A stretch of 64,000 bases of DNA from an uncultured Planctomycetales bacterium (GCA_964428315.1 CAYRXT010000007.1:5407-69406), one strand, 5' to 3'; shown: positions 1 to 11,406, counted from the first letter of the stretch. Notes: generated by a model not told the origin, from the sequence alone. Translations and numbers: made by a program.

Positions 1-500
1 TCGAGCCAGTTGACGCCGGCCGTCGTCAGTTCGGCCAGGTTGTCCCAGTTGATCGTCTCGTCCCAGTTGACGCCGGCGCCGCTCATGTAGGCGATGTCGT
101 ACCAGTTCACACCGGCCTCGCTCATGAACTCCAGGTCCTCCCAGTTAATGCCGCTGTCGCTCAGGACATCCAGGTCCGCCCAGTTGACGCCGGCGTCGGA
201 CATCACGTCGATGTCCAGCCAGTTGATCCCGGCATCGGAGAGGTCATTGATGCTGGTCCAGTTGATACCCTTGTCCGAGAGGATGTCGATATCCGCCCAG
301 TTGATGCCGGCGTCCGACATGTCGTTGACCGCGGTCCAGTTGATGCCCTTGTCGAACATGATGTCCAGGTCCGCCCAGTTCACGCCCGCGTCGCTCATGA
401 TGTCGATATCGAGCCAGTTGATGCCCGCCTCGGTGAGCTCGTAGATATCGTCCCAGTTGATCCCGGCCGCGGTCATGTCCGCGAGATCGCTCCAGGTGAC
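1..500 (-). repeat. Tandem 39-bp coding repeats encoding at least 12 copies of a 13-residue motif [S/T][D/E]AG[I/V]NW.D[I/L]D[I/V][M/L]. The array continues past the window edge. More degenerate NW units extend to about 720.
   Basis: The plus strand shows a periodic (c)cagttga(t/c)gccggc core every 39 nt. Translation reads ...TAAGINWDDIYELTEAGINWLDIDIMSDAGVNWADLDIMFDKGINWTAVNDMSDAGINWADIDILSDKGINWTSINDLSDAGINWLDIDVMSDAGVNWADLDVLSDSGINWEDLEFMSEAGVNWYDIAYMSGAGVNWDETINWDNLAELTTAGVNWL. Confidence 0.65.
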
Positions 501-3500
501 GTTGGCCTTGCTCAGCACCTCGATATCGTCCCAGTTGACGGGATCCATCTTGTCGGTGGTGGTCTTGATGCTGTCGGTGGTCGACTGGATGACCCCGACC
601 TGGTCCCAGTTGATGGTGTCGGTCACCGCCTTGATGGCGTCCACATTGGTGTCTATGGTATCGATCTTGGAATCGATCGTCGATATATCGCTCCAGTCGA
701 TGGTGTCGGTCTTGGCCTTGATGTCCGCCAGCTGGGAGGCGGTGACCGCGTAGAGCAGGCACTTGTCGTAGGTGGACCCGCCGTAGGAGATCTCCACGCA
801 GACCGAATACTCGTCGTCCAGGTCCGAGGGTGTCCAGCCGGTATAACTCTCGTAATCGAAATCGTCGCCGTCCGTCTTGGTCATCTCAAGCGAATCGCAG
901 TCACCGGGACACCCCGTATCCACCGCCCCGCTCCCCTGGTAGATGGTCAGGGTCCCGCTGGCCGCCTCCAGGTCCGCGACATAGCCGCCGTCATCGGAGA
1001 GCATGGCGCGGACCTCCCAGTTGTCGGCCGACTCGTCGTAGATGACGACGACATCGGCCACAGTCCCGCCCCCTCCGCTGCTGCCGCCGGTATTCGCGAT
1101 ATCCCGGACATTGTAGACCGCGTTGGAGGTGTAAGAGACCGCGCCGTTGCCGTCGTCGTAGGAAATGGTCACCACACCGTAGTAGATGTCGCTGGAATCC
1201 AAAGGCATCCAGCTGCCGTAACTGAAGATGTCATTCGCGTCCGGGTTGCCGATATCCGCCACCGTTGCGAGTTCCTCGGTCCCGTCGGGCTCATAAATCG
1301 TCAGTGAACAGGTGTCGTCGTTGTCCACGTCCACCACGTCCTGGTGGCCCTGCAGCCAGCATTTGACATAATAGGTCGACGCGGAATCGTCGTAAACGAC
1401 CTCGGACTTGACCTCCGTCGAAGGCAGGATGTCGAAGGCGCTGGAGGTCGCTGATGAGAGCCCCCCCGATGTGGCCGAAAGGTCGTAGTCGTTGCCGGCC
1501 CGGGTGATCCGCAGGTCGTTGAACGTGGCCACGCCGCTGGAAACGGTCTGCGTCAACGTCCCCAATAAAACACCGCTGGACGGGTTGGTGTTGATGGCGA
1601 CCGTGACGTTCGTCGAGTTGTCCTGCGCGATCACGGCGTTGTTGGAATCCCTCACCTGCACCTGCGGAAAATCCTGCAGGACGTCGAACTGGTAGGAATC
1701 TCCGGGGGACGTGCTGAAGTTCAGATTGTTGGGCCCCAGGAGCGTGGTCGTGCCCGATATGGCCACGGAACCCGAGGTGCTGACTGTCCCGGAGCTGAGG
1801 GTCACATCCGAGGGGGGATCATTGATGGATATCTCCACGGTCTCGCTGTCCGAGGCGCTGGAGGTCACATCCAGGACCGCGTAAACGCACAGGGCCTGCG
1901 TGGAAGAAATCTCGACCGAATCCGAAAAGGCCGAGGTCCCGTTGGCCGCGCTGAACCCGTCGGTATCGGTCGATCCGTACTGGGACTCGCCGCCGCCGTA
2001 GCTTTCCGAGGCGCAGTCATACGGCGAGGAGGTGTCCAGGTCGTAGTACAGCTTGATATTGTCCAGCCCGGTGGAGGCGTCCACGGTACCGCCTTCGGTG
2101 ATGGTGATGCCGGTAACGTTGCGCGCGGCGCTGTTTTCGGTGATCGTGAAGGCGCCGCCGATGTACTCGTTGACGTCGGGGATCTGCAGGCTGGCGGTCT
2201 GGGAGCCCGAAGTGCTGACCTCGGTCACTGCGAAAAACTCATCCGCGCCGATATCCGGCTGGGAGCTATCACGGCTGTCACCGTCGATGTCATCGGTAAT
2301 GGCAAGGTTGGAGTCTTCATCGAGGTCAGCCCCGTAGCTCCCCCATAAGGAATTAGAGTCATTTTTTAGGTGAAAATCTTCTGACCCTGCGGTTACGCTC
2401 TGAAAATAATCCGAATACGATGTCTGTTCCGTTACTCCATTAGCAAGGCTTGCTGAACTTGCCGATGTATCTGACGATACATTATTGGTAGAACCGGAAC
2501 CCCACGCCTGACCATCAAAATCAGAATTTGAATTATTGAGACAGACGTTGTTTTTTGCATAAAGCGTCGTCGTAGTCCCTCCAATATCCAAACCGTCATA
2601 GCTATCATAAACCGTGTTGTTATATATATAGGCCGTAGCCGTCCCCGTCACCCAAATACCCGCCCCCGAAGTAATTCCACGCAAGTAAACGATATTATTC
2701 CATATCTTCGCGACAACATCAGAATCTCCAAAAGAAATTCCCGTTGCAGAATTCGAAAAACTATTCGCATAAAGGATATTGTTAGAAACACGCAAATCAT
2801 TATTTGCAGAAATAGACTGATCACAAATTAAATAAGGATTGGAATATGTATCGTTGGACACTTTGATCTGTAACCCGTCAACACGCACATAATCATCGCG
2901 TATCCTAAAAATACGTTCATCATCTCCCGCTAAAGTCCTCTCTATACGATAGGCATCAGTATCATCCCACACACCCGCATGACGCTGACTGGTTCCCACC
3001 TCAGAAGTCTCTGTAGGCGTGTAAACATGAATATAATTAGCGGGACCTGTTGTATACCCATCGATATTGACCGTATTCGTATCCGCCCCGTCCCCATAAC
3101 AGGGCCAGTGCAGGACATATCCTTCCGTCAAGTCAGACGTATTCAAATAACTCGCGTCATCAGAATCATCCTCGGCACCGTCACCACCGCCGAGCGAATT
3201 AAACGCGCGTGAGATGGAATTGACGGTTACATCGGTCACGTCCGACGGCGTGTGTCCGGTAGCCGTGATGACGCTGTAGACGGTAGCGCTGGTGCGGCCC
3301 GAAATATAGGCGATCTTGTTGTCCGTATCATAGTCGATCTCATCGCCGACGCCCACATTATCGGCCTGGTCTTCGTCAAAGGTCGCCGTGCCGTCGGAAA
3401 TCGTCACCGTTAAGGTATCGGCGGTGGTCTTGAGATCTGAGGTGGACGTCCCCACCGAATAATACACGTTGACCACGTTCTCGTAAGACGAGCTGTATTC

Positions 3501-5633
3501 GTCGGCGCCGATGTCCGGGGCCGAGCTGTCGCGGGACTCGCCGTCGATGTCATCGGTCACGGCCAGGTTCGCATCCTCATCCAAGTCGGTCCCGTTGCCG
3601 CCCCACAGATTACTCGCCGTATCCCTCAGGTGCAGGTCCTCAAGCCCGTCGACGGTGATCCAGAAATAGTCCGTGTAACTCGACTGGCTGTCCACACTGC
3701 CGGTGCCGTCGGCGGTGGTGTCAGAGGCAACGTTGTAGGACTGGGTCATGGTGCCATCATAGCAATACTCATAGCTATTAGTCGAATCAACGTCGCCGAC
3801 ATAATTATTTGTGGCGGTTAACGTCCCCGCAGTAGCCCGCTGAATACCTCGTGCATTACCGCCTGTCGCTCCGCTTTGTTTAATATCGAACACCGTATTG
3901 TTGTAAAAATACGCGTTCAGAGTATTTCCAGCTTCATACACCATGAGCGCCGAAACATATGAATCACTATGTGCCGACACATTGGTCAGACTATAAATAA
4001 GCGTATTGCTCACTTTGAATGTTCCGCTTGTCCCGTATACCCCGCGGACACGGCTCTGATCCGTGTCATCAACCGTCGAATTGGTCAGGTCATGCACAAT
4101 ACAATGGGTCACCCGGACATCACTGGAAGCACTGGTACTGCCAACATAAATACCATTGAGCCCCTCGGCATTCGTAATACTGCTTCCGTCAATCTCTATC
4201 CCTTCAAACCGAACATAGTCCTCGTGATTCAGAATTATGTGATGGAAAGCACGGTCCGGACTGCTGGTTTCCTGCTGTATCCGAAATCCGGTACCGGCAA
4301 TACCGGTATGCCTCTGGCTCGCACCTACCTCAGAGGTGCCGTCAGGCGCGTATAATCGGATATATGTTTTGGGACCTGTCGTATACCCGTCGATGGTAAC
4401 CTGGTCATCAAGAGCCCCGTCGTTGTAACAGGGCCAGTGCAGGCGGTAATCGTTGGCCTGCAGGTCGGTGAGATTGAGATAACTCGCGTCGTCAGAGTCA
4501 TCTTCGGCGTCGGTCAGCGTGGTGAAAGTGCGGGTTATGGAGTTGACTGTGGCATCGGTCACATCCGAAGGCACGGCACCCGTGGCAGTAGTCACGGTAT
4601 AGACGGTGGAGCTGGTGCGGCCCGAGATATAGGCGTAGTTCGAGGTGTTGTAGGTGATCTTGTCACCCACCCCGACGTTATCGGCCTGGGCCTCGTCAAA
4701 GGTGGCCGTGCCGTCGGAGATCGTCACCGTTAAAGTGTCGGCGGTGGTCTTGAGATCCGATTCGTCCGTCCCCACCGAATAGTACACGTCCTTGACGACC
4801 AGGCCGTTGTCGTAGATATCCTTGATCTCATCGGCGCTGAGCGCCCGGTCAAAAATACCGACTTCGTCGATCAGCCCGTCGAAATACATCAGTTCATTCC
4901 AGCCGCCTTTACCGATCAAAAAACTGCGGCTGGAATTGTTGATGCCGCCGGAATAGGTCTGTGGATTATCCGATCCGTTGGAGTCAAGTTCCCCATCGAC
5001 ATAGATGCGGATGTCGGTCCCGTTATAGACCCCGGCAACATGATACCATGTCCCGGTCGAAAGGGTTGTCCCTCCGCTGGCGGTCGTGGTCGCGCTGCCG
5101 TCAGATGATAACGTCATACGCACATCCAAACCGCTTTCCACAAAAAACATGTAGGCCTTTTCATTGCCGGATGTCAAATATTTGTTAACAATAAACTGGT
5201 CGCTTCCGGTGTCGCTCTCCAACCGTATCCAGGCGCATATAGTCATACTGCCGGTAATGTCCAGTCCGGTCTGGCTCCCGTCTGTTATCTCCAGGTATTC
5301 GGTGTCTCCGGCCTCAAAATCAGCGCTGTAATTTCCCTGCTGGTAGGTGGAGGAGCGATCGATGGTGCCGGAGGTCTCTGAGAGGTCATTATCATTAGAG
5401 GTCTCATCATAGCGGGTGCCGGTCTCCTCGAAGAGCCAGATGCCCTGGGCGTTGTCGTCGTCGGCGTAGTTGGTGGCGAAGGCGTGTCCCGAGAGGCCGA
5501 GCACGGCCGCGGCGGCCAGCGCGGACACAAGAAGGCCCCGTGTCCATGCGTTGCCACGGCACGAAATCCTTTCGGACCTTGTCTTTCCTGATTGAAGACA
5601 AATAGTTTTTATTAATTTAAATAAAGAATCCAA
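1..5633 (-). CDS. Giant secreted multidomain surface (adhesin/S-layer-like) protein, partial because the C-terminus runs off the window start. Domains N-to-C: signal peptide; LamG/ConA-like lectin domain; two tandem ~420-aa parallel beta-helix modules; Ig-like region; 13-aa NW tandem repeats.
   Basis: Continuous minus-strand reading frame (codons on plus positions 3k..3k+2) with no stop between 5637 and position 1, hand-translated at both ends and through the middle. The other two minus frames and all plus frames show only short ORFs in the track. N-terminus ...RGLLVSALAAAAVLGLSGHAFA is a signal peptide with AXA cleavage. The first in-frame start is TTG at 5631-5633, after a TAA at 5637-5639; the start codon is uncertain. 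LamG motif ...TGTWYHVAGVYNGTDIRIYVDGEL...FDGLIDEVGIFDRALSADEI. Beta-helix PbH1-type turns NNTVFD, NNIVY, NNTVYD, NNVCLNNS. Both modules end ...DIDG(E/D)SRDSS.PDIGADE. Confidence 0.6.
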   Translation of the reverse strand, partial: MDSLFKLIKTICLQSGKTRSERISCRGNAWTRGLLVSALAAAAVLGLSGHAFATNYADDDNAQGIWLFEETGTRYDETSNDNDLSETSGTIDRSSTYQQGNYSADFEAGDTEYLEITDGSQTGLDITGSMTICAWIRLESDTGSDQFIVNKYLTSGNEKAYMFFVESGLDVRMTLSSDGSATTTASGGTTLSTGTWYHVAGVYNGTDIRIYVDGELDSNGSDNPQTYSGGINNSSRSFLIGKGGWNELMYFDGLIDEVGIFDRALSADEIKDIYDNGLVVKDVYYSVGTDESDLKTTADTLTVTISDGTATFDEAQADNVGVGDKITYNTSNYAYISGRTSSTVYTVTTATGAVPSDVTDATVNSITRTFTTLTDAEDDSDDASYLNLTDLQANDYRLHWPCYNDGALDDQVTIDGYTTGPKTYIRLYAPDGTSEVGASQRHTGIAGTGFRIQQETSSPDRAFHHIILNHEDYVRFEGIEIDGSSITNAEGLNGIYVGSTSASSDVRVTHCIVHDLTNSTVDDTDQSRVRGVYGTSGTFKVSNTLIYSLTNVSAHSDSYVSALMVYEAGNTLNAYFYNNTVFDIKQSGATGGNARGIQRATAGTLTATNNYVGDVDSTNSYEYCYDGTMTQSYNVASDTTADGTGSVDSQSSYTDYFWITVDGLEDLHLRDTASNLWGGNGTDLDEDANLAVTDDIDGESRDSSAPDIGADEYSSSYENVVNVYYSVGTSTSDLKTTADTLTVTISDGTATFDEDQADNVGVGDEIDYDTDNKIAYISGRTSATVYSVITATGHTPSDVTDVTVNSISRAFNSLGGGDGAEDDSDDASYLNTSDLTEGYVLHWPCYGDGADTNTVNIDGYTTGPANYIHVYTPTETSEVGTSQRHAGVWDDTDAYRIERTLAGDDERIFRIRDDYVRVDGLQIKVSNDTYSNPYLICDQSISANNDLRVSNNILYANSFSNSATGISFGDSDVVAKIWNNIVYLRGITSGAGIWVTGTATAYIYNNTVYDSYDGLDIGGTTTTLYAKNNVCLNNSNSDFDGQAWGSGSTNNVSSDTSASSASLANGVTEQTSYSDYFQSVTAGSEDFHLKNDSNSLWGSYGADLDEDSNLAITDDIDGDSRDSSQPDIGADEFFAVTEVSTSGSQTASLQIPDVNEYIGGAFTITENSAARNVTGITITEGGTVDASTGLDNIKLYYDLDTSSPYDCASESYGGGESQYGSTDTDGFSAANGTSAFSDSVEISSTQALCVYAVLDVTSSASDSETVEISINDPPSDVTLSSGTVSTSGSVAISGTTTLLGPNNLNFSTSPGDSYQFDVLQDFPQVQVRDSNNAVIAQDNSTNVTVAINTNPSSGVLLGTLTQTVSSGVATFNDLRITRAGNDYDLSATSGGLSSATSSAFDILPSTEVKSEVVYDDSASTYYVKCWLQGHQDVVDVDNDDTCSLTIYEPDGTEELATVADIGNPDANDIFSYGSWMPLDSSDIYYGVVTISYDDGNGAVSYTSNAVYNVRDIANTGGSSGGGGTVADVVVIYDESADNWEVRAMLSDDGGYVADLEAASGTLTIYQGSGAVDTGCPGDCDSLEMTKTDGDDFDYESYTGWTPSDLDDEYSVCVEISYGGSTYDKCLLYAVTASQLADIKAKTDTIDWSDISTIDSKIDTIDTNVDAIKAVTDTINWDQVGVIQSTTDSIKTTTDKMDPVNWDDIEVLSKANVTWSDLADMTAAGINWDDIYELTEAGINWLDIDIMSDAGVNWADLDIMFDKGINWTAVNDMSDAGINWADIDILSDKGINWTSINDLSDAGINWLDIDVMSDAGVNWADLDVLSDSGINWEDLEFMSEAGVNWYDIAYMSGAGVNWDETINWDNLAELTTAGVNWL
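2232..4790 (-). repeat. Intragenic tandem duplication: two ~1.29-kb copies (about 2232..3496 and 3497..4790), each encoding one beta-helix module of the giant protein.
   Basis: Near-identical DNA blocks, for example 3330-3440 vs 4640-4750 (…tcggcctgg.c.tcgtcaaaggt.gccgtgccgtcgga.atcgtcaccgttaa.gt.tcggcggtggtcttgagatc…). Both protein copies begin VYYSVGT..SDLKTTADTLTVTISDGTATFDE and end PDIGADE. Confidence 0.55.
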
Positions 5634-5989: not shown

Positions 5990-6024
5990 AAAACCGGTTC
6001 CACCTACGAGGTGGAACCGGTTTT
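5990..6024. repeat. REP-like hairpin, left flank of the RAYT.
   Basis: aaaaccggttccacc-tacga-ggtggaaccggtttt: a 15-bp perfect inverted repeat with a 5-nt loop. Confidence 0.8.
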
Positions 6025-6700
6025 ACTCCAAAATCGCCTTTTTGATCCTTGACAGCTCCCGCTGGTAACCGACCTGGTCTTCGACGAACGTCTTGTACGC
6101 ACCCGGATTTATATCAACGATATGGTCAAACTGACATAAAGAATCCGGGCGGTCCCGTTCAATATACTCCCGGTACGAGGAATAACGCCATTCCTCCGGA
6201 TAGTCGACCAGATGCGCGGTCACGGGATTCAGGTGGATATAGCGCGTCACATGCAAAAGGACCTCGTCTGTATCCACCAGGACTTTGCGCGTGCGCCCCT
6301 GCCACAGCGGCCCCTGCCGTTTATGCCGGAGGTTGAAATACCGGGAATAACTGTTGAGCACATCGCTCGTGTACCGTGGCAGGCTCTCCTCTTTGGTTTC
6401 CTCGACCAGAAGATGGAAATGCGTCGGCATAAGGCAATAGGCGATAAGACGGATACGCCTGCTCCGGTGGTTCCGCGGCGGGGAGGCCCCGCCCTTTGCG
6501 GGTCCGGTCCTGCGCCCCGGTGAGACGGGATGCATCCGGCGATAAAGAGAAAATTTCTGAGGCGGCTTTTTCAGCTGATAATAGTCCAGGGCATCGGTCA
6601 TGCGCATGTATTCGGCGTTGTTATTGAAGATCTTGTACCGGGCGATGCTCCGGTTAAAGACATGATAGACGGCGTTCATGGGAAGTTTTTTACGTTCCAC
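6023..6700 (-). CDS. REP-associated tyrosine transposase (RAYT) / IS200-like Y1 HUH transposase.
   Basis: Motifs YHVFNRS...IF, HUH motif LIAYCLMPTHFHLLVEE, GPLWQGRTRKVLVDTDEVLLHVTRYIHLNPV (catalytic Tyr region) and EEWRYSSYREY. The track start is GTG at 6700; ATG at 6679 (MNAVYHVFNRS) is the more likely start. The stop overlaps the left hairpin. Confidence 0.75.
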   Translation of the reverse strand: MERKKLPMNAVYHVFNRSIARYKIFNNNAEYMRMTDALDYYQLKKPPQKFSLYRRMHPVSPGRRTGPAKGGASPPRNHRSRRIRLIAYCLMPTHFHLLVEETKEESLPRYTSDVLNSYSRYFNLRHKRQGPLWQGRTRKVLVDTDEVLLHVTRYIHLNPVTAHLVDYPEEWRYSSYREYIERDRPDSLCQFDHIVDINPGAYKTFVEDQVGYQRELSRIKKAILE

Positions 6701-6750: not shown

Positions 6751-7965
6751 TCATTCCGTCAAAAACGGCGCGTTAATGATCACCGCCTTTTCCTCATCCA
6801 GCTCTTTCTCGGTCGGCGAATCGATCATGGACCGCATCTCCAGTTTCGCCTCCAGGATCTTCTCCTTGACCAGGTCGACATCGCCGGCGTTGGGCCTGAG
6901 ATAGAGATATTCCTGGTAATGCTTCAACGCCGTTTCCGTGTCCCCCAAAAATTCCCCGCTGACGAACGCCAGATTGTAATGCGCGGCCGCGTCATTGGGC
7001 ATGATCTCCAGGACCTTTTTATACTCGACCACGGACCGGCCGTAATCGCCGCGTTCATAGAAGAGATTCGCCAGGTTATAATGCAGGCGCGCCGAGTCCG
7101 CCCGCAGTTCCTGGTTTTCCGCGTTAAGCTGGCGGATCTTCTCCGCCGCGGTCTTGACGTCATCGCTCATGTCCTCAAAGGTGGTCTGGACTTCCTCCTC
7201 GAGCTTGTCCAGCAGTTCCAGCGACTCCCGGCGGAGTTCCTGGTTTTCCTCTTTAAGCGCCGCGATTCTCCGGTCGGTTTCGCGCTGGACGGTCTCCTGT
7301 TTTTCGATGGCGGCGGCACGCAGACGCTCGTTTTCTTCACTCAAAAAACTGATCCTCTCGGCGGCCATCTTCAGCCTGTCATCGGTTGCCTCCATGTCTC
7401 CGGGGTCCCAGAAGAGTCCCATCTGTTTAATCTTCTCTTTTTCCTTCTGCAGGGCACTCAGCTCGGCGATCTTATCATCCAGTTCCTTTTCCAGGCCCGC
7501 CATCCGGGCGTTGAGAGCCTCCAGCTCTTTGCCTGTCGACTCCCGGCTGTCGTCGAGCGCGTCGATCTCGGCCTGGAGGTCATCCCTCTGCCGGATGAGG
7601 TTGTTGATACGGTTTCGCCGGATGGTGCTCTGGCCGCGCAGTTCCTTCAGCTCGCTCTCAAGGGTCTTGCGCTCGTCGATCAGCTGTTTGTTCTCCTCCA
7701 GGGCGTTCCTGAGGCTCTGGTTGATGATCACCATCTGCTTTTCGTTGAGATCGAGTGCGGGGACATCCTCTCCAGCCGCCGGAAGCGCGTCATCATCCCC
7801 CACCGCCGTCTCGTCATCGACAGAAGGGGCGATCTGCTCGATCTGGATCTCCGTCTCAACCACCGCCCTCTCCTGGGCCAGCACGCACGGAACAATCAGC
7901 AGGCCAAGCGAAATACCAACACCCGTGCGGACCGCGGACCGCAAACCTTCACGCATTAAATCCAT
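6751..7965 (-). CDS. Secreted or membrane-anchored coiled-coil protein with C-terminal TPR repeats. It may be an MshN-like partner of the secretin.
   Basis: Long heptad-rich E/K/L/R segment (…ELKELRGQ…LQAEIDALDD…LEKELDDKIAELSALQKEKEK…) followed by TPR-like GDYGRSVVEYKKVLEIMPNDAAAHYNLAFV…ALKHYQEYLYLRPNAG. The preferred start is ATG 7965 (MDLMREGLRSAVRTGVGISLGLLIVPCVLAQ, signal-like), with a GAGGAAGGG RBS 5 nt upstream. The track ORF extends to 8025. Confidence 0.5.
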   Translation of the reverse strand: MDLMREGLRSAVRTGVGISLGLLIVPCVLAQERAVVETEIQIEQIAPSVDDETAVGDDDALPAAGEDVPALDLNEKQMVIINQSLRNALEENKQLIDERKTLESELKELRGQSTIRRNRINNLIRQRDDLQAEIDALDDSRESTGKELEALNARMAGLEKELDDKIAELSALQKEKEKIKQMGLFWDPGDMEATDDRLKMAAERISFLSEENERLRAAAIEKQETVQRETDRRIAALKEENQELRRESLELLDKLEEEVQTTFEDMSDDVKTAAEKIRQLNAENQELRADSARLHYNLANLFYERGDYGRSVVEYKKVLEIMPNDAAAHYNLAFVSGEFLGDTETALKHYQEYLYLRPNAGDVDLVKEKILEAKLEMRSMIDSPTEKELDEEKAVIINAPFLTE

Positions 7966-8052
7966 TAGCCCTTCCTCTTGTTTGTCCTTTTTGCTTTCTC
8001 GTCCCGCTGACGGGGAGCGTTTCACCCGGCAGGGAGAAGTGGTTTTCGAGCC

Positions 8053-9705
8053 TCACATCTCCTTGAGTTCCTGCGGCTCCTCATAATCTTTGAACGGCTT
8101 GATCGTCCCCCGCCATTGTTTATACCGGTCGTCCGCCCTTACGACATGTGGCGTGATAAAGATAACGATCTCCGTCTTCGTTATGGTGTCGCTCTGGTTG
8201 CGGAACAAGGCGCCCAGCAACGGGATATCCATCAAAAGGGGGACGCCTTTTTCCACATGGCTCTTGTCGTCCTTTTTTAACCCGGCAAGGATGATGGTAT
8301 TCCCGTCCTTGACCATGACGGTCGTCTCCACCTCGGTCTTGTTGACCTGGGGGATCCCGCCGCCCTGTGATTCGATCTTGGCCGTGACCGTGGAGATCTC
8401 CGGCTTCAGGCTCATGGTGACAAATCCGTCGTCGTTGATGGTCGGCGTCACCAGCAGTTTCAACCCCACATCGACAAAACGCACGTCTTCGCTGGTGATC
8501 GCGTTGTCGCCCGTGCCCGATGTAGTGGAAATGATGTAGGGCACGGAGTCCCCTATATGGATCTTGGCCTCTTCATTGTTGGTCACCAGGAGCTTGGGAT
8601 TGGAGAGGATCTTCGTGTCGCTGACCTGCTGGAGCGCGCGCAGATTGATCTCAAACTGATCCGGCGTGATATCGCCGTAGCCGATCTTGCCGAATTCTGA
8701 ATAAAGGGCGTCGCTGCTGCTGAGGTTGTTTTCATCAAGAAAGATACTTCGGAAGCTGAGGTCTCTCAGACCGGAGTGTTCGCTGCGCTTGAAATCCGTC
8801 TCCCAGTCAATGCCGAAATCAAACTGGGGCTTAAATGTAATCTGGATGACCCTGGCTTCGATGAGGACTTCCTTCGTCTGGGCATCCAGCTCTTGAATCA
8901 GCTCCTCGACCTCCTTGCGCCGTCCGGGAAGCGCCCGGACGATCAGCTTGTTGGACCGCTCGTCTGGCGTGATGCTGCCGACCGCATTGGCGTCGATTCG
9001 CGCACGCAGCTTCTCGGCGACCACATCGGCCTTGGCGTACTGCAGGCTGAAGACCATCGACTCGACGGGCATGTCGATCCGGCGGATGGCCGCCATCATC
9101 TTCTCCAGGGTCTGCGGCGTGTCGATCATCGCCACGGTCCCGGTGTCTTCGTCAATGATAATCTTGCCCAAATTGCTCTTGATGGAATCCAGCGCGGCAA
9201 GGATATAGCTCGGCTTGGCGTAATGCAGGCGGACGATTTTTACCTCCTGCTTGTCGGAAAAGCGCCGGCCGTAAAGGGCGGAATATTCCGATTCCGTCAT
9301 GACATGGACGATGCCGTTCTTGACCTCGTAAGCCAGGTTGTTGGAAATCAGGATGATGTCCAGGGCGTCCCTGATGGAAACGCTCTTGAGGTACAGCGTC
9401 ACCCGGCCGGTCACGGTTGGATTGGTGACGACGTTAAACTCTCCCTTCAGCGCCAGAAACTTTATGACGTCCACCATGTTCATGTCGCGCACGTCGAGGG
9501 TGATCTTGCGGCCCAGCCCCTCAACGTCGTCCGGGCCGGTCTCCTCACTGAATTCCGAGCCTGCGTCGGTCCCGCTGACACCCGGTACCGGCATGGCATG
9601 CGCCTGCGGCGTGACGCCGGCAGGCTGAGCCTTCAGAGTCCCGGCAAAAACCGCGATGCCGAAAACCGTCGCCGCGATGATGACGCATCCTTTAACACTG
9701 CGCAT
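8053..9705 (-). CDS. Secretin of the GspD/PilQ/MshL family (type II secretion / type IV pilus outer-membrane channel).
   Basis: Signal peptide MRSVKGCVIIAATVFGIAVFAGTLKAQ. N-terminal secretin-N-like domains. C-terminal secretin domain …VETTVMVKDGNTIILAGLKKDDKSHVEKGVPLLMDIPLLGALFRNQSDTITKTEIVIFITPHVV. Confidence 0.8.
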   Translation of the reverse strand: MRSVKGCVIIAATVFGIAVFAGTLKAQPAGVTPQAHAMPVPGVSGTDAGSEFSEETGPDDVEGLGRKITLDVRDMNMVDVIKFLALKGEFNVVTNPTVTGRVTLYLKSVSIRDALDIILISNNLAYEVKNGIVHVMTESEYSALYGRRFSDKQEVKIVRLHYAKPSYILAALDSIKSNLGKIIIDEDTGTVAMIDTPQTLEKMMAAIRRIDMPVESMVFSLQYAKADVVAEKLRARIDANAVGSITPDERSNKLIVRALPGRRKEVEELIQELDAQTKEVLIEARVIQITFKPQFDFGIDWETDFKRSEHSGLRDLSFRSIFLDENNLSSSDALYSEFGKIGYGDITPDQFEINLRALQQVSDTKILSNPKLLVTNNEEAKIHIGDSVPYIISTTSGTGDNAITSEDVRFVDVGLKLLVTPTINDDGFVTMSLKPEISTVTAKIESQGGGIPQVNKTEVETTVMVKDGNTIILAGLKKDDKSHVEKGVPLLMDIPLLGALFRNQSDTITKTEIVIFITPHVVRADDRYKQWRGTIKPFKDYEEPQELKEM

Positions 9706-9733: not shown

Positions 9734-10444
9734 TTAAAGATTCATCATCATCTCTTCGGATTTATAGCCCAGGATGACTTCGTCGCCGCGGATCGCCTTG
9801 ACCTTCAGGGCGTCGATGCTCTCTCCCACGGCCACGAAATGCGTAATGCCGTTTACCGTGTCCTCGATCATCGCGATGGGGGCCCCTTCGTCCTCCACGC
9901 TGGAAATCCCCACCAGCCTGAGATTCTTCGTGAGTGCCGTAATCTGCACGGCTTCGGGCGCTTCGTCAGGTGATTTTTCCACCACCTTCTTCTCGTAGGG
10001 CTGAAAAATATTCCTGTGTTCCAGCAGGCTCAGGTATAGGGAGACATCCGGCGAAGACGGTACCGCGATCTGCATCGACCCTTTGCTCCCCTCATCCCGA
10101 GAAACAGCGATCTCCTGCCTGGTGTAACGCAGTCCGTTTACAATATTCCAAACGAAAAGCAGGCATACAACCATAAGGGCGGCCAGGAGGAGATTGTTCA
10201 CTTCCCTCATCCCGAAGCTCGGCCGGCCAGAACCGCTGCGAAGGCCGGAAAAGAGTCCCTCCAGGGCCGGCGGCAGGTTCAGGCCCGGGAGGCCCAGTCC
10301 CTTGACTGAGGTAGCGACCGCCGCCGCCTCCATTTCCCCCGAGGCTTCTTCCTTTTCGGCCTCTACGGCCGGGGCATCACCTCCCTGCTCTTCAATCAGA
10401 CGCAGGAGTTTCTGCTCGCCTGTTTCTTTTTTTTTTGCTGACAT
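9734..10444 (-). CDS. Single-pass membrane protein, possibly a GspC/PilP-like secretin-interacting component.
   Basis: Charged N-terminus, one TM helix (LLLAALMVVCLLFVWNIV) and a periplasmic C-terminal beta-rich segment (…LRLVGISSVEDEGAPIAMIEDTVNGITHFVAVGESIDALKVKAIRGDEVILGY) resembling HR/PilP-type domains. A poly(A)10 tract covers codons 3-6. Confidence 0.35.
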   Translation of the reverse strand: MSAKKKETGEQKLLRLIEEQGGDAPAVEAEKEEASGEMEAAAVATSVKGLGLPGLNLPPALEGLFSGLRSGSGRPSFGMREVNNLLLAALMVVCLLFVWNIVNGLRYTRQEIAVSRDEGSKGSMQIAVPSSPDVSLYLSLLEHRNIFQPYEKKVVEKSPDEAPEAVQITALTKNLRLVGISSVEDEGAPIAMIEDTVNGITHFVAVGESIDALKVKAIRGDEVILGYKSEEMMMNL

Positions 10445-10509: not shown

Positions 10510-11406
10510 TCACGCCAAATCCTCCGTCTTCTGATAAGCCGGCTTGCTGATCATCGTCTTGCGGTCCCATCCCGCCTGTCGCTCCTTATCCAGGACATCC
10601 CTCACGACAGACTTGTCGGCGACAGGCTTGTTCTGCATAACCATCTCCTTCAGGACGCGGTGGCAGAGCATCGTGATACTGCGGGGGTATCCACGCGAGT
10701 AATTGTATATCTCGCTGACGGCATCCGGAGAGAACAATTCCATCGCAGAGGCATACCCGGCCTTCCGGATCCGGTATTCTATCATTTCCTTTGTCTCTTT
10801 GGGGCCCAGCGGATTCAGCGTGTACTTAAAACTTATCCGGTCAATGAAATTGGACATGTTCGCTATCTTCGAATATAACTCCATCTGTCCAAGAAGCACA
10901 AGCTGTATAAGTTTGTATTCATTGGTTTCGAAATTCAGCAAAACCCGCAGGACCTCCAGCGTTGTGAGGTCCAGCTTCTGCGCCTCATCAATAATGAGGA
11001 TGACGGTCTTCTTCTCCTCGACACTCTTCTGGATCAGAAATCTTTCAACGGCGTCACGCAGATCCAGGATGCGTTCAATGGCCGGCATGTCCGACGGCTC
11101 CAGTTCGATATTAAAATTTCTTACCAGTGATATCAAAAACTGCTCTTCATTTTCAAAGGCCGGATTGAGTATCATGTGAAATATCAGATCGCCGCGCCTT
11201 CGCAGTTCTTGAACAAGCTTGCGCGACAGGCTCGTCTTCCCGGTCCCGATATCACCGAATATGACTGTGAGACCACGGCGCAAACGCAGTTCAATCAGGA
11301 TGTTGGTCAAGGCCATATCGTGTTCGCGCGTAAGATAGAAAAATTCCGGATCGGGGCTCGTTGAGAATGGTTCTTTTTTAAAACCAAGCAGACTGTGATA
11401 GGACAT
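10510..11406 (-). CDS. ExeA/GspA/MshM-like AAA ATPase (secretin assembly/piloting ATPase).
   Basis: N-terminus MSYHSLLGFKKEPF, Walker A GDIGTGKTSL and Walker B ILIIDEAQ, with ExeA-family architecture. An AT-rich promoter region lies upstream (11407-11528). Confidence 0.75.
   Translation of the reverse strand: MSYHSLLGFKKEPFSTSPDPEFFYLTREHDMALTNILIELRLRRGLTVIFGDIGTGKTSLSRKLVQELRRRGDLIFHMILNPAFENEEQFLISLVRNFNIELEPSDMPAIERILDLRDAVERFLIQKSVEEKKTVILIIDEAQKLDLTTLEVLRVLLNFETNEYKLIQLVLLGQMELYSKIANMSNFIDRISFKYTLNPLGPKETKEMIEYRIRKAGYASAMELFSPDAVSEIYNYSRGYPRSITMLCHRVLKEMVMQNKPVADKSVVRDVLDKERQAGWDRKTMISKPAYQKTEDLA

What the first reader, a model, noticed from the sequence alone, without database searches (positions are those of the whole stretch)
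1..720. Unrecognised 13-residue NW tandem repeat family (39-bp DNA period)
At least 12 consecutive copies of [S/T][D/E]AG[I/V]NW.D[I/L]D[I/V][M/L] are present, preceded by degenerate ..NW.. units. The invariant Asn-Trp and the alternating acidic and hydrophobic positions suggest a regular solenoid (beta-roll-like) or a cell-wall or S-layer binding array. I do not recognise it as RTX, choline-binding, SLH, YD or any other standard repeat. The array is truncated by the window, so the true copy number is higher.
Basis: seen in the sequence. Interest (0 to 1): 0.6.

Follow-up and report, generated by a model that had tools for sequence, protein, structure and literature searches.

The report
New 13-residue Asn-Trp repeat, Omnitrophota
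The window's left edge holds the start of a long array of 13-amino-acid Asn-Trp units from a large secreted protein of an Omnitrophota-type bacterium; the repeat is in no domain or structure database, reaches hundreds of copies in relatives, and always sits between secretion/pilus genes and an unusual ATPase operon.

Summary
On the minus strand, an ORF of at least 1877 codons (about 5633 down to 3, cut by the window edge) ends in 13 units at exactly 13-aa spacing, a conserved half-unit "landmark", and the start of a second sub-array. Chance expectation is 0.00. Pfam, NCBIfam, PDB sequences, Foldseek and the searchable literature do not recognise the unit ([ST]-x-A-G-[IV]-N-W-x-D-[LIF]-x-x-[LM]).

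The family is rare: 659 of 1.84 billion representative proteins. It is almost confined to Omnitrophota MAGs. Arrays run from about 25 to more than 500 units, which makes giant ORFs and breaks assemblies.

AlphaFold2 twice predicts one short helix per unit and no β-strand, at low confidence. The conserved residues fit helix-capping motifs. The β-roll idea is therefore not supported, but it is not excluded.

The array always ends in a conserved helical C-module of about 260 aa, which lies off this window. The gene sits in a fixed supercluster: AAA_22, T2SSC-like, secretin, TPR, NW protein, membrane protein, F-type ATPase, pilus genes.

Best reading: the array is the length-variable shaft of a secreted surface fibre tied to the "symbiotic" ATPase/pilus locus. 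This is a new repeat family; its fold and function are unproven.

The parts
3..5633 (-). Partial CDS of a large secreted protein (at least 1877 aa). It runs off the window's left edge and the start codon is uncertain (TTG 5633 assumed; GTG 5528 possible).
   Evidence: The frame is open for 1878 codons. It is collinear with the complete 2809-aa homologue P0036 at 48-50% identity.
5475..5633 (-). Signal-peptide-like N-terminus (...RGLLVSALAAAAVLGLSGHAFA/TNY).
   Evidence: Read from the sequence. There is a hydrophobic segment at aa 29-53. Homologues P0036 and P0040 also start with a hydrophobic leader.
4821..5306 (-). Laminin_G_3 / concanavalin-A-like lectin domain.
   Evidence: Pfam PF13385, E = 2.3e-32. 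PDB relatives are 4qvs_A and 5hon_A.
3495..4787 (-). Head module, copy 1 (VYYSVGT...PDIGADEY). About 430 aa, beta-helix-like.
   Evidence: Internal duplication: 48% identity to copy 2, E = 1e-106. Homologues carry PF13229 Beta_helix.
2235..3467 (-). Head module, copy 2 (VYYSVGT...PDIGADEF).
723..2234 (-). Middle region with no Pfam hit here. It contains 'VSSGVATFNDLRITRAG' and 'YYVKCWLQGHQDVVD' and is collinear with P0036.
   Evidence: BLASTP 48% identity, window aa 1269-1841 against P0036 aa 1200-1810. P0036 has a precomputed Ig_Rha78A_N hit.
552..722 (-). Lead-in: degenerate, longer NW-type units (IKAKTDTIDW..., TINW...), predicted as a long helical hairpin.
   Evidence: Trp spacings of 29 and 25 residues. 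AlphaFold2 helices H10-36 and H39-59, pLDDT 85-93.
63..551 (-). Proximal sub-array: 13 units at exactly 13-aa (39-nt) spacing.
45..62 (-). Conserved 'landmark' half-unit DETINW (6-residue Trp spacing) that separates the proximal and distal sub-arrays.
   Evidence: The same motif is present in 11 homologues.
3..44 (-). First unit of the distal sub-array (DNLAELTTAGVNWL), cut by the window edge.
   Evidence: In complete homologues 9-64 units and a ~260-aa C-module follow.
6751..8025 (-). Upstream neighbour: coiled-coil/TPR protein. Conserved next to NW genes.
   Evidence: Pfam TPR. tblastn hits in 29 array-bearing blocks. Collinear in L126.
8053..9705 (-). Upstream neighbour: secretin (GspD/PilQ type).
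   Evidence: Pfam Secretin 1.1e-51. Hits in 25 blocks, top hits 65-67% identity. 63% identity to the L126 secretin.
9734..10444 (-). Upstream neighbour: T2SSC-like protein.
   Evidence: Pfam PF11356. Collinear in L126.
10510..11406 (-). Upstream neighbour: AAA_22 ATPase.
   Evidence: Pfam. 67-70% identity in L126 and L069.

Best explanation
The region encodes the first part of a very long tandem array of a previously undescribed 13-residue repeat, [ST]-x-A-G-[IV]-N-W-x-D-[LIF]-x-x-[LM].

The array belongs to a Sec-exported giant protein of an Omnitrophota-type bacterium. The protein's layout is:
- a signal peptide;
- a carbohydrate-type 'head' (a LamG domain plus two beta-helix-like modules);
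- a helical lead-in;
- the NW array, made of a short proximal sub-array, a landmark half-unit and a long distal sub-array;
- by homology, a conserved helical/coiled-coil C-terminal module of about 260 aa ending in VVK[ST]WFE, which lies off this window.

Each unit most likely forms one short alpha-helix of 9-10 residues. Asn is the N-cap, Asp is the N3 capping-box residue, and Gly is the C' residue of a Schellman cap. The Ile/Val is shared as the staple residue of two neighbouring helices. Units pair into a 26-residue helix-corner-helix super-repeat, and these stack into an elongated rod.

The rod would act as a shaft or spacer whose length is set by copy number (about 25 to more than 500 units). 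It would hold the N-terminal head away from the cell. The conserved C-module would dock the fibre to the envelope machinery encoded around it: the secretin/T2SS-type genes upstream, and downstream a bitopic membrane protein, the 'symbiotic' non-respiratory F-type ATPase and pilus genes.

Shown here: the repeat, its family, its taxonomic restriction, the copy-number range, the protein architecture and the synteny.
Inferred: the helical fold, the rod shape, surface exposure, docking by the C-module, and any coupling to the ATPase or pilus.
For: Repeat and chance test.

No known family:
- Pfam and NCBIfam give nothing on the array.
- PDB sequence searches give nothing.
- Foldseek against the PDB returns only designed helical toroids at TM ~0.3 for model 1 and nothing for model 2.

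Family size and distribution:
- 35 hits in 5.8 billion proteins.
- 659 hits at E <= 1e-3 in 1.84 billion representatives.
- A degenerate DNA signature hits at least 119 blocks of species-representative genomes. They are labelled almost entirely Omnitrophota/Omnitrophica, or 'uncultured Planctomycetales/Planctomycetia' or 'uncultured bacterium' MAGs.

Architecture: P0036, P0038 and P0039 have head + array + C-module.

Giant arrays: one uninterrupted ORF in OY759724.1 carries 304 units and then the C-module. Another whole 8-kb block of that chromosome holds 205 more units.

Helix per unit:
- Two AlphaFold2 runs place the helix start at the Trp and the loop at (A)G[IV]N.
- The logo of 7105 unique units has G/N at position 4, N96% at 6, D75% at 9, and hydrophobic residues at 5, 10 and 13. 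These are the spacings of the hydrophobic-staple, capping-box and Schellman motifs (established knowledge).
- Gly-less lead-in units are predicted as continuous helices at pLDDT ~90.
- A 2-unit super-period appears in Tandem Repeats Finder (78 nt) and in unit autocorrelation.

Synteny:
- Of 27 loci with at least 4 kb downstream of the array, 26 have the C-module, 24 the membrane-protein gene and 23 the ATPase beta gene.
- Upstream, the secretin, TPR and AAA_22 genes recur.
- The complete locus L126 is collinear with the window over 10 genes.

Literature context:
- Symbiotic F-type ATPase/type-4a pilus loci in all Omnitrophota classes (PMC10066038).
- T2SS-like loci next to Omnitrophota giant genes (bioRxiv 10.1101/2023.11.21.568195).
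Against: - Fold confidence is low: pLDDT 56-66 and pTM ~0.3. The tertiary packing is therefore unknown.
- The model-free hydrophobic periodicity peaks at 138 degrees, which is neither clearly alpha nor beta.
- Positions 11-12 are rich in G/D/N and Val, which are poor helix formers.
- The flanking coiled-coil-like segments suggest an oligomer, which a monomer prediction cannot model.
- There is no experimental or expression evidence for localisation.
- The C-module and the ATPase cluster are not in this window. They are inferred from collinear homologues.
- The source contig could not be found.
- Synteny does not prove functional coupling.
Confidence: 0.5

Rival explanations
1. The units form a beta-type fibre rather than helices. 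One option is a beta-solenoid with 26 residues (two units) per coil, stabilised by an Asn ladder and a Trp stack. The other is an obligate trimeric beta-spiral or triple beta-helix shaft, like viral fibre shafts, nucleated by the coiled-coil-like segments on both sides.
For: - Hydrophobic residues alternate: I5/W7 and L10/V12.
- The strongest hydrophobic harmonics are at 138 and 166 degrees.
- Asn and Gly are invariant, as in many beta-solenoids.
- There is a 2-unit super-period.
- Low AlphaFold2 confidence is what one expects for an obligate oligomer modelled as a monomer.
- A confident helical hairpin precedes the array and a coiled-coil-like C-module follows it.
Against: - Neither AlphaFold2 run predicts a single strand in the array.
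- In my experience AlphaFold2 usually recognises beta-solenoids readily.
- The conserved residues fit helix-capping motifs with exact spacing.
- There are no Pfam hits to any beta-helix, RTX or fibre-shaft family.
Confidence: 0.2
2. The array is mainly a multivalent ligand-binding surface, not a passive shaft. Each unit would present Trp/Asn/Asp to bind a repeating polymer on prey or host cells (cell-wall glycan, S-layer or capsule), in the manner of choline-binding or cell-wall-binding repeats.
For: - Trp, Asn and Asp are the invariant residues and are typical sugar-binding residues. Trp is the one conserved residue with no capping role.
- The head domains are carbohydrate-type: LamG, with beta-helix in homologues.
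- Omnitrophota giant proteins are proposed adhesins or cell-wall degraders.
Against: - There is no similarity to any known binding repeat.
- Copy numbers of several hundred exceed what avidity needs.
- Nothing tested here bears on binding.
- It is compatible with the shaft model rather than exclusive of it.
Confidence: 0.2
3. The units are degenerate EF-hand/dockerin-like calcium loops (D-x-[LM]-S-D-A-G-I-N-W-x-D followed by a helix). Extracellular Ca2+ would rigidify the array, or the units would mediate cohesin-like docking, as in the 'Dockerin-type' Omnitrophota giants.
For: - Positions 1, 5, 8, 9 and 12 of the canonical 12-residue loop are matched in the acidic units of this window (sequence reading).
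- Dockerin/EF-hand/TSP3-rich giants exist in the phylum.
- Low AlphaFold2 confidence could reflect a missing ion.
Against: - There is no dockerin or EF-hand Pfam hit even at E <= 10, on real or idealised arrays.
- Loop position 3 is a conserved Leu/Met.
- The acidic positions 2 and 11 are not conserved across the family.
- A 13-residue period is too short for a helix-loop-helix EF-hand.
Confidence: 0.1
4. The array is a meaningless low-complexity expansion or an assembly artefact.
For: Arrays sit at contig ends and scaffold gaps and cause truncated or mis-called ORFs. Frame changes occur in some long arrays.
Against: - The frame stays open for hundreds of units.
- Asn-Trp is invariant in 158-204 consecutive units while nucleotide identity between units is only ~0.6-0.8.
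- The family is conserved across many species with fixed flanking modules and synteny.
Confidence: 0.02

Closest known systems
Alpha-solenoid tandem repeats (HEAT/ARM/TPR/TALE/mTERF; designed helical-repeat toroids such as PDB 5byo and 8v2d)
   Same: Tandem short helices are predicted to stack into an elongated or curved solenoid. These are the only Foldseek matches to the model. There is a two-helix (26-aa) super-period.
   Different: The period is 13 residues with one helix per unit, against 30-45 residues and 2-3 helices. There is no sequence or profile similarity. TM-scores are ~0.3 only, and the array-only model matches nothing.
Extender (shaft) repeats of giant bacterial adhesins (e.g. 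the BIg domains of SiiE and the Marinomonas ice-binding adhesin; own knowledge)
   Same: A long, copy-number-variable tandem array forms most of a giant secreted protein, between an anchoring or secretion module and ligand-binding domains. This is the proposed working analogy.
   Different: Those are ~100-aa beta-sandwich domains in T1SS substrates. Here the unit is a 13-aa, probably helical, repeat in a protein with a Sec signal peptide and T2SS/pilus-type neighbours.
Dockerin / EF-hand calcium loops, and the 'Dockerin-type' Omnitrophota giant proteins (bioRxiv 10.1101/2023.11.21.568195)
   Same: A D-x-x-x-D-x-G-I-N-x-x-D loop is followed by a helix. Both occur in the same phylum in giant repetitive extracellular proteins that break assemblies.
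   Different: No Pfam dockerin or EF-hand match. Loop position 3 is hydrophobic, the acidic ligand positions are not conserved family-wide, and the period is 13.
Short-period beta-solenoids (RTX nonapeptide beta-roll; 12-residue Tenebrio antifreeze helix; Asn-ladder beta-helices)
   Same: A very short, strictly regular period with invariant Gly and Asn.
   Different: There is no GGxGxD motif and no Pfam hit. There are four bulky hydrophobic residues per 13. All predictions are helical.
Surface proteins genetically or functionally tied to F1-like ATPases in Mycoplasma (gliding machinery of M. mobile; type 2/3 F1-like clusters), to which Seymour et al. compare the Omnitrophota 'symbiotic' ATPase
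   Same: A huge surface-type protein gene lies next to a non-respiratory F-type ATPase cluster that is itself next to pilus genes (PMC10066038).
   Different: There is no sequence relationship. The Omnitrophota cluster includes c and b/delta subunits. The link is purely positional here.

Membership tests
RTX / HemolysinCabind beta-roll | Nonapeptide GGxGxDxUx repeats; Pfam PF00353 match. | tested here: not met
   No hit at E <= 1 or E <= 10. The period is 13 and there is no GGxGxD motif.
Choline-binding / CW_binding_1, SLH, YD/RHS repeats | Match to the respective Pfam repeat models; periods of ~20 aa (CW), ~55 aa (SLH) or the YD motif. | tested here: not met
   None listed in Pfam scans of the whole protein, the 269-aa tail, a 650-aa homologue array or an idealised array.
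Dockerin / EF-hand | A 12-residue Ca2+ loop with ligands at positions 1, 3, 5 and 12 plus Gly6; Pfam PF00404 or the EF-hand models. | tested here: not met
   No hit at E <= 10. Position 3 is Leu/Met, and positions 1 and 5 are variable across 7105 units.
BNR / Asp-box | The S-x-D-x-G-x-T-W hairpin, spaced at blade intervals of a beta-propeller; domain score above the cut-off. | tested here: not met
   Only summed partial matches with 0 independent stretches. The window scores 17.2 bits against a cut-off of 27. The motif is one residue shorter and recurs every 13 residues.
Ntox33 (PF15533) | A full-length match to the 65-position toxin domain above the gathering score. | tested here: not met
   The window scores 20-22 bits, below 28.4. 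Only profile positions 8-38 are matched. The homologue array reaches 39 bits only by summing repeats, with no independent domain.
Lysostaphin_N (PF25533) | A match above 60 bits to the propeptide repeat region. | tested here: not met
   29.5 bits on the P0036 array. I take it as an artefact of a shared 13-residue period, which I recall for the lysostaphin propeptide. A tandem Myc-tag construct with 13-residue units is the analogous top PDB hit.
Alpha-solenoid structural class | Tandem helices. | tested here: met
   One helix per unit in two AlphaFold2 runs. Confidence is low (pLDDT 56-66).
Alpha-solenoid structural class | Regular superhelical stacking of the repeats. | tested here: inconclusive
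   pTM 0.27-0.30. Foldseek gives designed toroids at TM ~0.3 or no hit.
   The window has VNWYDIAYMSGAGVNWDETINWDNLAELTTAGVNW, identical in pattern to 11 homologues.
   It lies beyond the window edge, and the source contig was not found. It is present in 26 of 27 loci with enough downstream DNA.
'Symbiotic' F-type ATPase / type-4a pilus locus (Seymour et al. 2023, PMC10066038) | A non-respiratory F-type ATPase operon within ~10 kb of type-IV-pilus/T2SS genes. | tested here: inconclusive
   It is met in homologue loci L001-L004, L124 and L126, and in 23 of 27 blocks. In the window only the upstream half is visible (AAA_22, T2SSC-like, secretin, TPR). The ATPase side is off-window. The ATPase phylogeny was not tested.

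The most novel reading that the evidence does not exclude
The NW array is the shaft of a previously unrecognised extracellular filament, tens to several hundred nanometres long and built from a new one-helix-per-13-residue solenoid fold. Its conserved C-module and the adjacent bitopic membrane protein couple it mechanically to the non-respiratory F-type ATPase and the pilus/T2SS-type apparatus. Together these would form a new ATP-driven attachment, prey-capture or surface-motility machine of ultra-small Omnitrophota, loosely analogous to the ATPase-driven legs of Mycoplasma mobile.
Probability: 0.12. Interest if true: 0.9.

Novelty: new variant of a known kind. Interest (0 to 1): 0.66.

Why it matters
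Omnitrophota are widespread, ultra-small and uncultured, and are thought to be predators or parasites. Their giant genes and their "symbiotic" ATPase/pilus loci are two of the phylum's main unexplained genomic features.

This finding links the two. One class of giant ORFs consists almost entirely of a single undescribed 13-residue unit, and these genes occupy a fixed position between the secretin/T2SS-type genes and the ATPase/pilus genes.

- It gives a simple sequence signature for finding these genes.
- It explains why they fragment assemblies and are annotated as short "hypothetical, partial" proteins.
- It supplies concrete, testable components for the proposed attachment apparatus: the array, the C-module and the membrane partner.
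- If the unit is a single capped helix, it would be the shortest-period natural alpha-solenoid that I know of. That is of interest for repeat-protein structure and design.

Tried and rejected
1. Recovering the missing 3' part of the gene failed. Exact look-ups of two neighbouring proteins and exact 60-mer scans of genome and metagenome contigs found nothing.

2. I first inferred that the window edge was near the end of the array, because the 'AYMSGAGVNW' motif resembles the terminal motif of short homologues. I rejected this once P0036-P0040 showed the same motif as an internal landmark followed by many more units.

3. I took the 380-415-aa homologues to be stand-alone proteins without signal peptides. 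I rejected this because their frames stay open upstream, with more NW units, as far as a contig end or a run of Ns.

I replaced it with a degenerate DNA signature scan.

5. A deeper in-register alignment (46 rows) did not raise AlphaFold2 confidence: pLDDT was 56 against 66.

6. The Fourier analysis of hydrophobicity was ambiguous, peaking at 138 degrees.

7. The dockerin/EF-hand, BNR and Ntox33 leads were tested and not met.

9. The N-terminal head could not be used for taxonomy. It is shared with CPR bacteria, Planctomycetota and DPANN archaea proteins.
Full report
**Observation.**
The repeat is real, but it lies on the minus strand. The + strand motif CCAGTT is the reverse complement of AAC-TGG (Asn-Trp). 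One minus-strand frame is open for 1878 codons, from 5636 to the left edge of the window.

In that frame Trp recurs at exactly 13-residue spacing through 13 units (nt 63-551). A 6-residue step follows (DETINW, nt 45-62), and then another unit that the edge cuts (nt 3-44). Longer, degenerate TIDW/TINW units precede the array (nt 552-722).

- G[IVL]NW occurs 12 times in this frame and in no other frame of the 64 kb.
- Three NW codon pairs at 39-nt spacing match 9 times, against 0.00 expected in shuffles.
- Tandem Repeats Finder reports periods of 39 and 78 nt.
- Units are only 62.5% identical at the DNA level on average, so the array is old and conserved as protein.

**The protein in the window.**
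Reading from the N-terminus, the protein has the following parts.
- A signal-peptide-like leader.
- A Laminin_G_3 domain, Pfam E = 2.3e-32, with PDB relatives 4qvs_A and 5hon_A.
- A ~430-aa module present twice, at 48% identity and E = 1e-106. Homologues of this module carry the Beta_helix family.
- A middle region with no Pfam hit.
- The helical lead-in.
- The array.

The head is a widely shuffled extracellular module. It is found in large proteins of CPR bacteria, Planctomycetota, Omnitrophota and DPANN archaea.

**The family.**
The repeat region finds only 35 proteins among 5.8 billion, none with an informative name. An exhaustive HMMER search with a family profile finds 659 of 1.84 billion representatives at E <= 1e-3, and 59 at E <= 1e-30. 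Every named hit is a 'hypothetical protein' of Candidatus Omnitrophota/Omnitrophica, and many are marked partial.

I scanned the species-representative genomes with a degenerate DNA signature: two G-[IV]-N-W-x-D units in register plus a third NW, about 57 bits.
- The labels are almost all Omnitrophota, including the genera Aceula and Zapsychrus, or 'uncultured Planctomycetales/Planctomycetia' or 'uncultured bacterium' MAGs.
- A few short contigs sit in Gallionellaceae, Gastranaerophilales and Woeseiaceae bins. These are probably mis-binned.
- Most blocks are the first or last block of their contig, so the array breaks assemblies.

The apparent 380-415-aa 'stand-alone' homologues are artefacts of this. 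Upstream of them the frame remains open, with further NW units, up to a contig end or a run of Ns.

**Copy number.**
Complete homologues share the window's layout.
- P0036 (2809 aa) is collinear with the window protein at 48-50% identity and has 74 in-register units.
- The sequence at the window edge, VNWYDIAYMSGAGVNWDETINWDNLAELTTAGVNW, is a landmark conserved in 11 homologues.
- This landmark separates a proximal sub-array of 3-16 units from a distal one.
- The distal sub-array has 9, 29 and 64 units in the three complete proteins. A C-module of 255-271 residues follows it, ending in VVK[ST]WFE.

The window therefore holds the proximal sub-array and only the first distal unit.

Arrays can be enormous.
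- In the complete chromosome OY759724.1, one uninterrupted ORF carries 304 units and then the C-module.
- Another entire 8-kb block of that chromosome is open, with 205 more units.
- The array continues across the record origin with a 1-nt frame offset.
- A second genome shows at least 280 units.

In these arrays Asn6 and Trp7 are invariant in 158-204 consecutive units. Nucleotide identity between units is about 0.6-0.8. There is an even/odd (26-aa) alternation, plus higher-order repeats of 6, 12 or 18 units.

**What the unit is.**
The logo from 7105 unique units is: S/T(1) x A(3) G80%/N7%(4) I/V(5) N96%(6) W(7) x D75%(9) L/I/F(10) x V(12) L/M(13). Pro is below 0.7% at every position. Trp is invariant by construction, because units were selected on it.

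AlphaFold2 was run twice.
- One run used 15 whole homologues and the other used 46 in-register blocks.
- Both predict one 8-10-residue helix per unit, starting at the Trp, with (A)G[IV]N loops and no strand.
- Confidence is low: pLDDT 66 and 56, pTM ~0.3.
- The Gly-less lead-in forms a helical hairpin at pLDDT 85-93.

Independently, the conserved residues fit textbook helix-capping motifs with exact spacing (my own knowledge of the capping-box, hydrophobic-staple and Schellman motifs).
- N-terminal cap: I5 (N'), N6 (N-cap), D9 (N3) and L10 (N4).
- C-terminal cap: L13 (C3), G/N4 (C', left-handed conformation) and I5 (C'').

On this reading only the Trp lacks a capping role.

Two points weigh against this. 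A Fourier analysis of hydrophobicity peaks at 138 degrees, which is ambiguous. Positions 11-12 are poor helix formers. I therefore rate a helical unit as likely, at about 0.6. A beta-solenoid, or a trimeric beta-spiral nucleated by the flanking coiled-coil-like segments, remains a live rival.

**Comparison with known families.**
- Pfam and NCBIfam give nothing on the array.
- At E <= 10, on real and idealised arrays, there is still no RTX, CW_binding, SLH, RHS, dockerin or EF-hand hit.
- What does appear is summed partial matches with no independent domain: BNR_6, Ntox33 and Lysostaphin_N.
- PDB sequence searches return only coiled-coil-type chains for the C-module. For the array they return a tandem Myc-tag construct, another 13-residue-period artefact.
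- Foldseek gives designed helical toroids at TM ~0.3 for model 1 and no hit for model 2.
- The three Omnitrophota giant-gene papers read here describe Archaeovorin, Dockerin-type and other repeat classes, but not this unit. A phrase search found nothing.

**Context.**
The NW gene occupies a fixed position.

Downstream:
- In three independent contigs it is followed by an unannotated gene.
- An F-type ATPase operon comes next (beta, epsilon, c, b/delta-OSCP, gamma, alpha), and then T2SSE/T2SSF/pilin or PilZ/PilM/PilN genes.
- Among 27 species-representative loci with at least 4 kb of downstream DNA, 26 have the C-module, 24 the unannotated gene and 23 the beta gene.
- The unannotated product has a signal peptide or N-terminal TM segment and a C-terminal TM anchor, and no Pfam family.

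Upstream:
- The window's secretin, TPR/coiled-coil and AAA_22 genes recur next to arrays. The secretin's top hits are 65-67% identical, across 25 blocks.

Reference locus:
- The complete locus L126, which holds P0036, is collinear with the window over ten genes at 36-70% identity and the same GC content.
- The window's gene is therefore very probably followed by the same membrane-protein/ATPase/pilus genes.

This neighbourhood matches the 'symbiotic' non-respiratory F-type ATPase/type-4a pilus loci reported in all Omnitrophota classes (PMC10066038). It also matches the T2SS-like loci reported beside Omnitrophota giant genes (bioRxiv 10.1101/2023.11.21.568195).

**Mechanism (inference).**
The most economical reading has four steps.
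- The protein is exported by the Sec system.
- The NW array forms a long rod whose length is set by copy number.
- The variable carbohydrate-type head is the working end.
- The invariant C-module is the docking end, addressing the fibre to the machinery encoded on both sides of the gene.

The wide copy-number range, about 25 to more than 500 units, is typical of spacer arrays in giant adhesins. Ligand binding by the exposed Trp/Asn/Asp, or Ca2+-dependent stiffening, could coexist with this role. None of this has been tested experimentally.

**Verdict.**
'Beta-roll-like' is not supported. This is a new repeat family: a new variant within the known kind of solenoid shafts of giant surface proteins. 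It is restricted to Omnitrophota-type genomes, and its conserved genomic address makes it more interesting than the repeat alone.

Noticed in passing
window 6023-6700 (-): An IS200-like Y1 transposase-family gene (Pfam Y1_Tnp, E = 7e-6) lies between the TPR gene and the giant NW gene. The collinear locus L126 has only a 102-nt gap at that position, so this looks like an insertion into the conserved cluster.
   Followed up: partly
L126 18502-25409; L003 5301-11936; L001 1545-7554; L124 1418-8431: The ATPase operon next to NW genes has the order beta, epsilon, c, b/delta (OSCP), gamma, alpha. No called gene in it matches subunit a. It is always preceded by one or two unannotated bitopic membrane proteins. 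L126 also has 54-aa and 71-aa ORFs flanking the c gene.
   Followed up: partly
L124 1-213; L125 3594-3863; L003 3806-4036: Short 'complete' NW proteins in databases (P0042, P0163, P0002) are truncations at contig ends or scaffold gaps inside the array. A spurious opposite-strand ORF is even called over the array in L124 (3-200). In the window, the ORFs 94-444 (+), 457-753 (+) and 244-762 (-) are the same kind of artefact.
   Followed up: yes
OY759724.1: L080 (1-8000), L116 (3360001-3360633), L009 and L077 (3336001-3352000): The giant NW gene spans the numbering origin of this 'complete' chromosome. There is a 1-nt frame offset at the junction, which is either a circularisation error or a real break. 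The block 3352001-3360000 was not returned, so the total count (probably more than 700 units) is not directly verified.
   Followed up: partly
L072 and L096 (JBFWOS010000001.1, 352001-368000): About 400 NW units are spread over several reading frames. These are either frameshift errors in the assembly or an array broken into pieces.
   Followed up: no
L080, L009, L092: The giant arrays contain higher-order repeats. Unit identity is higher at even lags and peaks at lags of 6, 12 or 18 units (up to 0.84 against a background of 0.61). This could reflect block duplication or a structural super-period.
   Followed up: partly
P0003 and P0020 (database proteins): NW units are fused in frame to a pyrroline-5-carboxylate reductase C-terminal fragment (P0003) and to a TPR domain (P0020). 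These may be chimeric ORF calls on short contigs or real alternative architectures.
   Followed up: no
P0025, P0028, P0031, P0033 (database proteins): Small signal-peptide proteins (~310-370 aa) carry dispersed GINW-type units, not strictly tandem, separated by other sequence. They may be a distant, non-array branch of the family.
   Followed up: no
window 2235-4787 (-): The head contains a tandem duplication of a ~430-aa module (48% identity). Each copy ends in the motif DDIDG(E/D)SRDSS.PDIGADE(Y/F). Pfam does not recognise the module in this protein, although homologues carry Beta_helix.
   Followed up: partly
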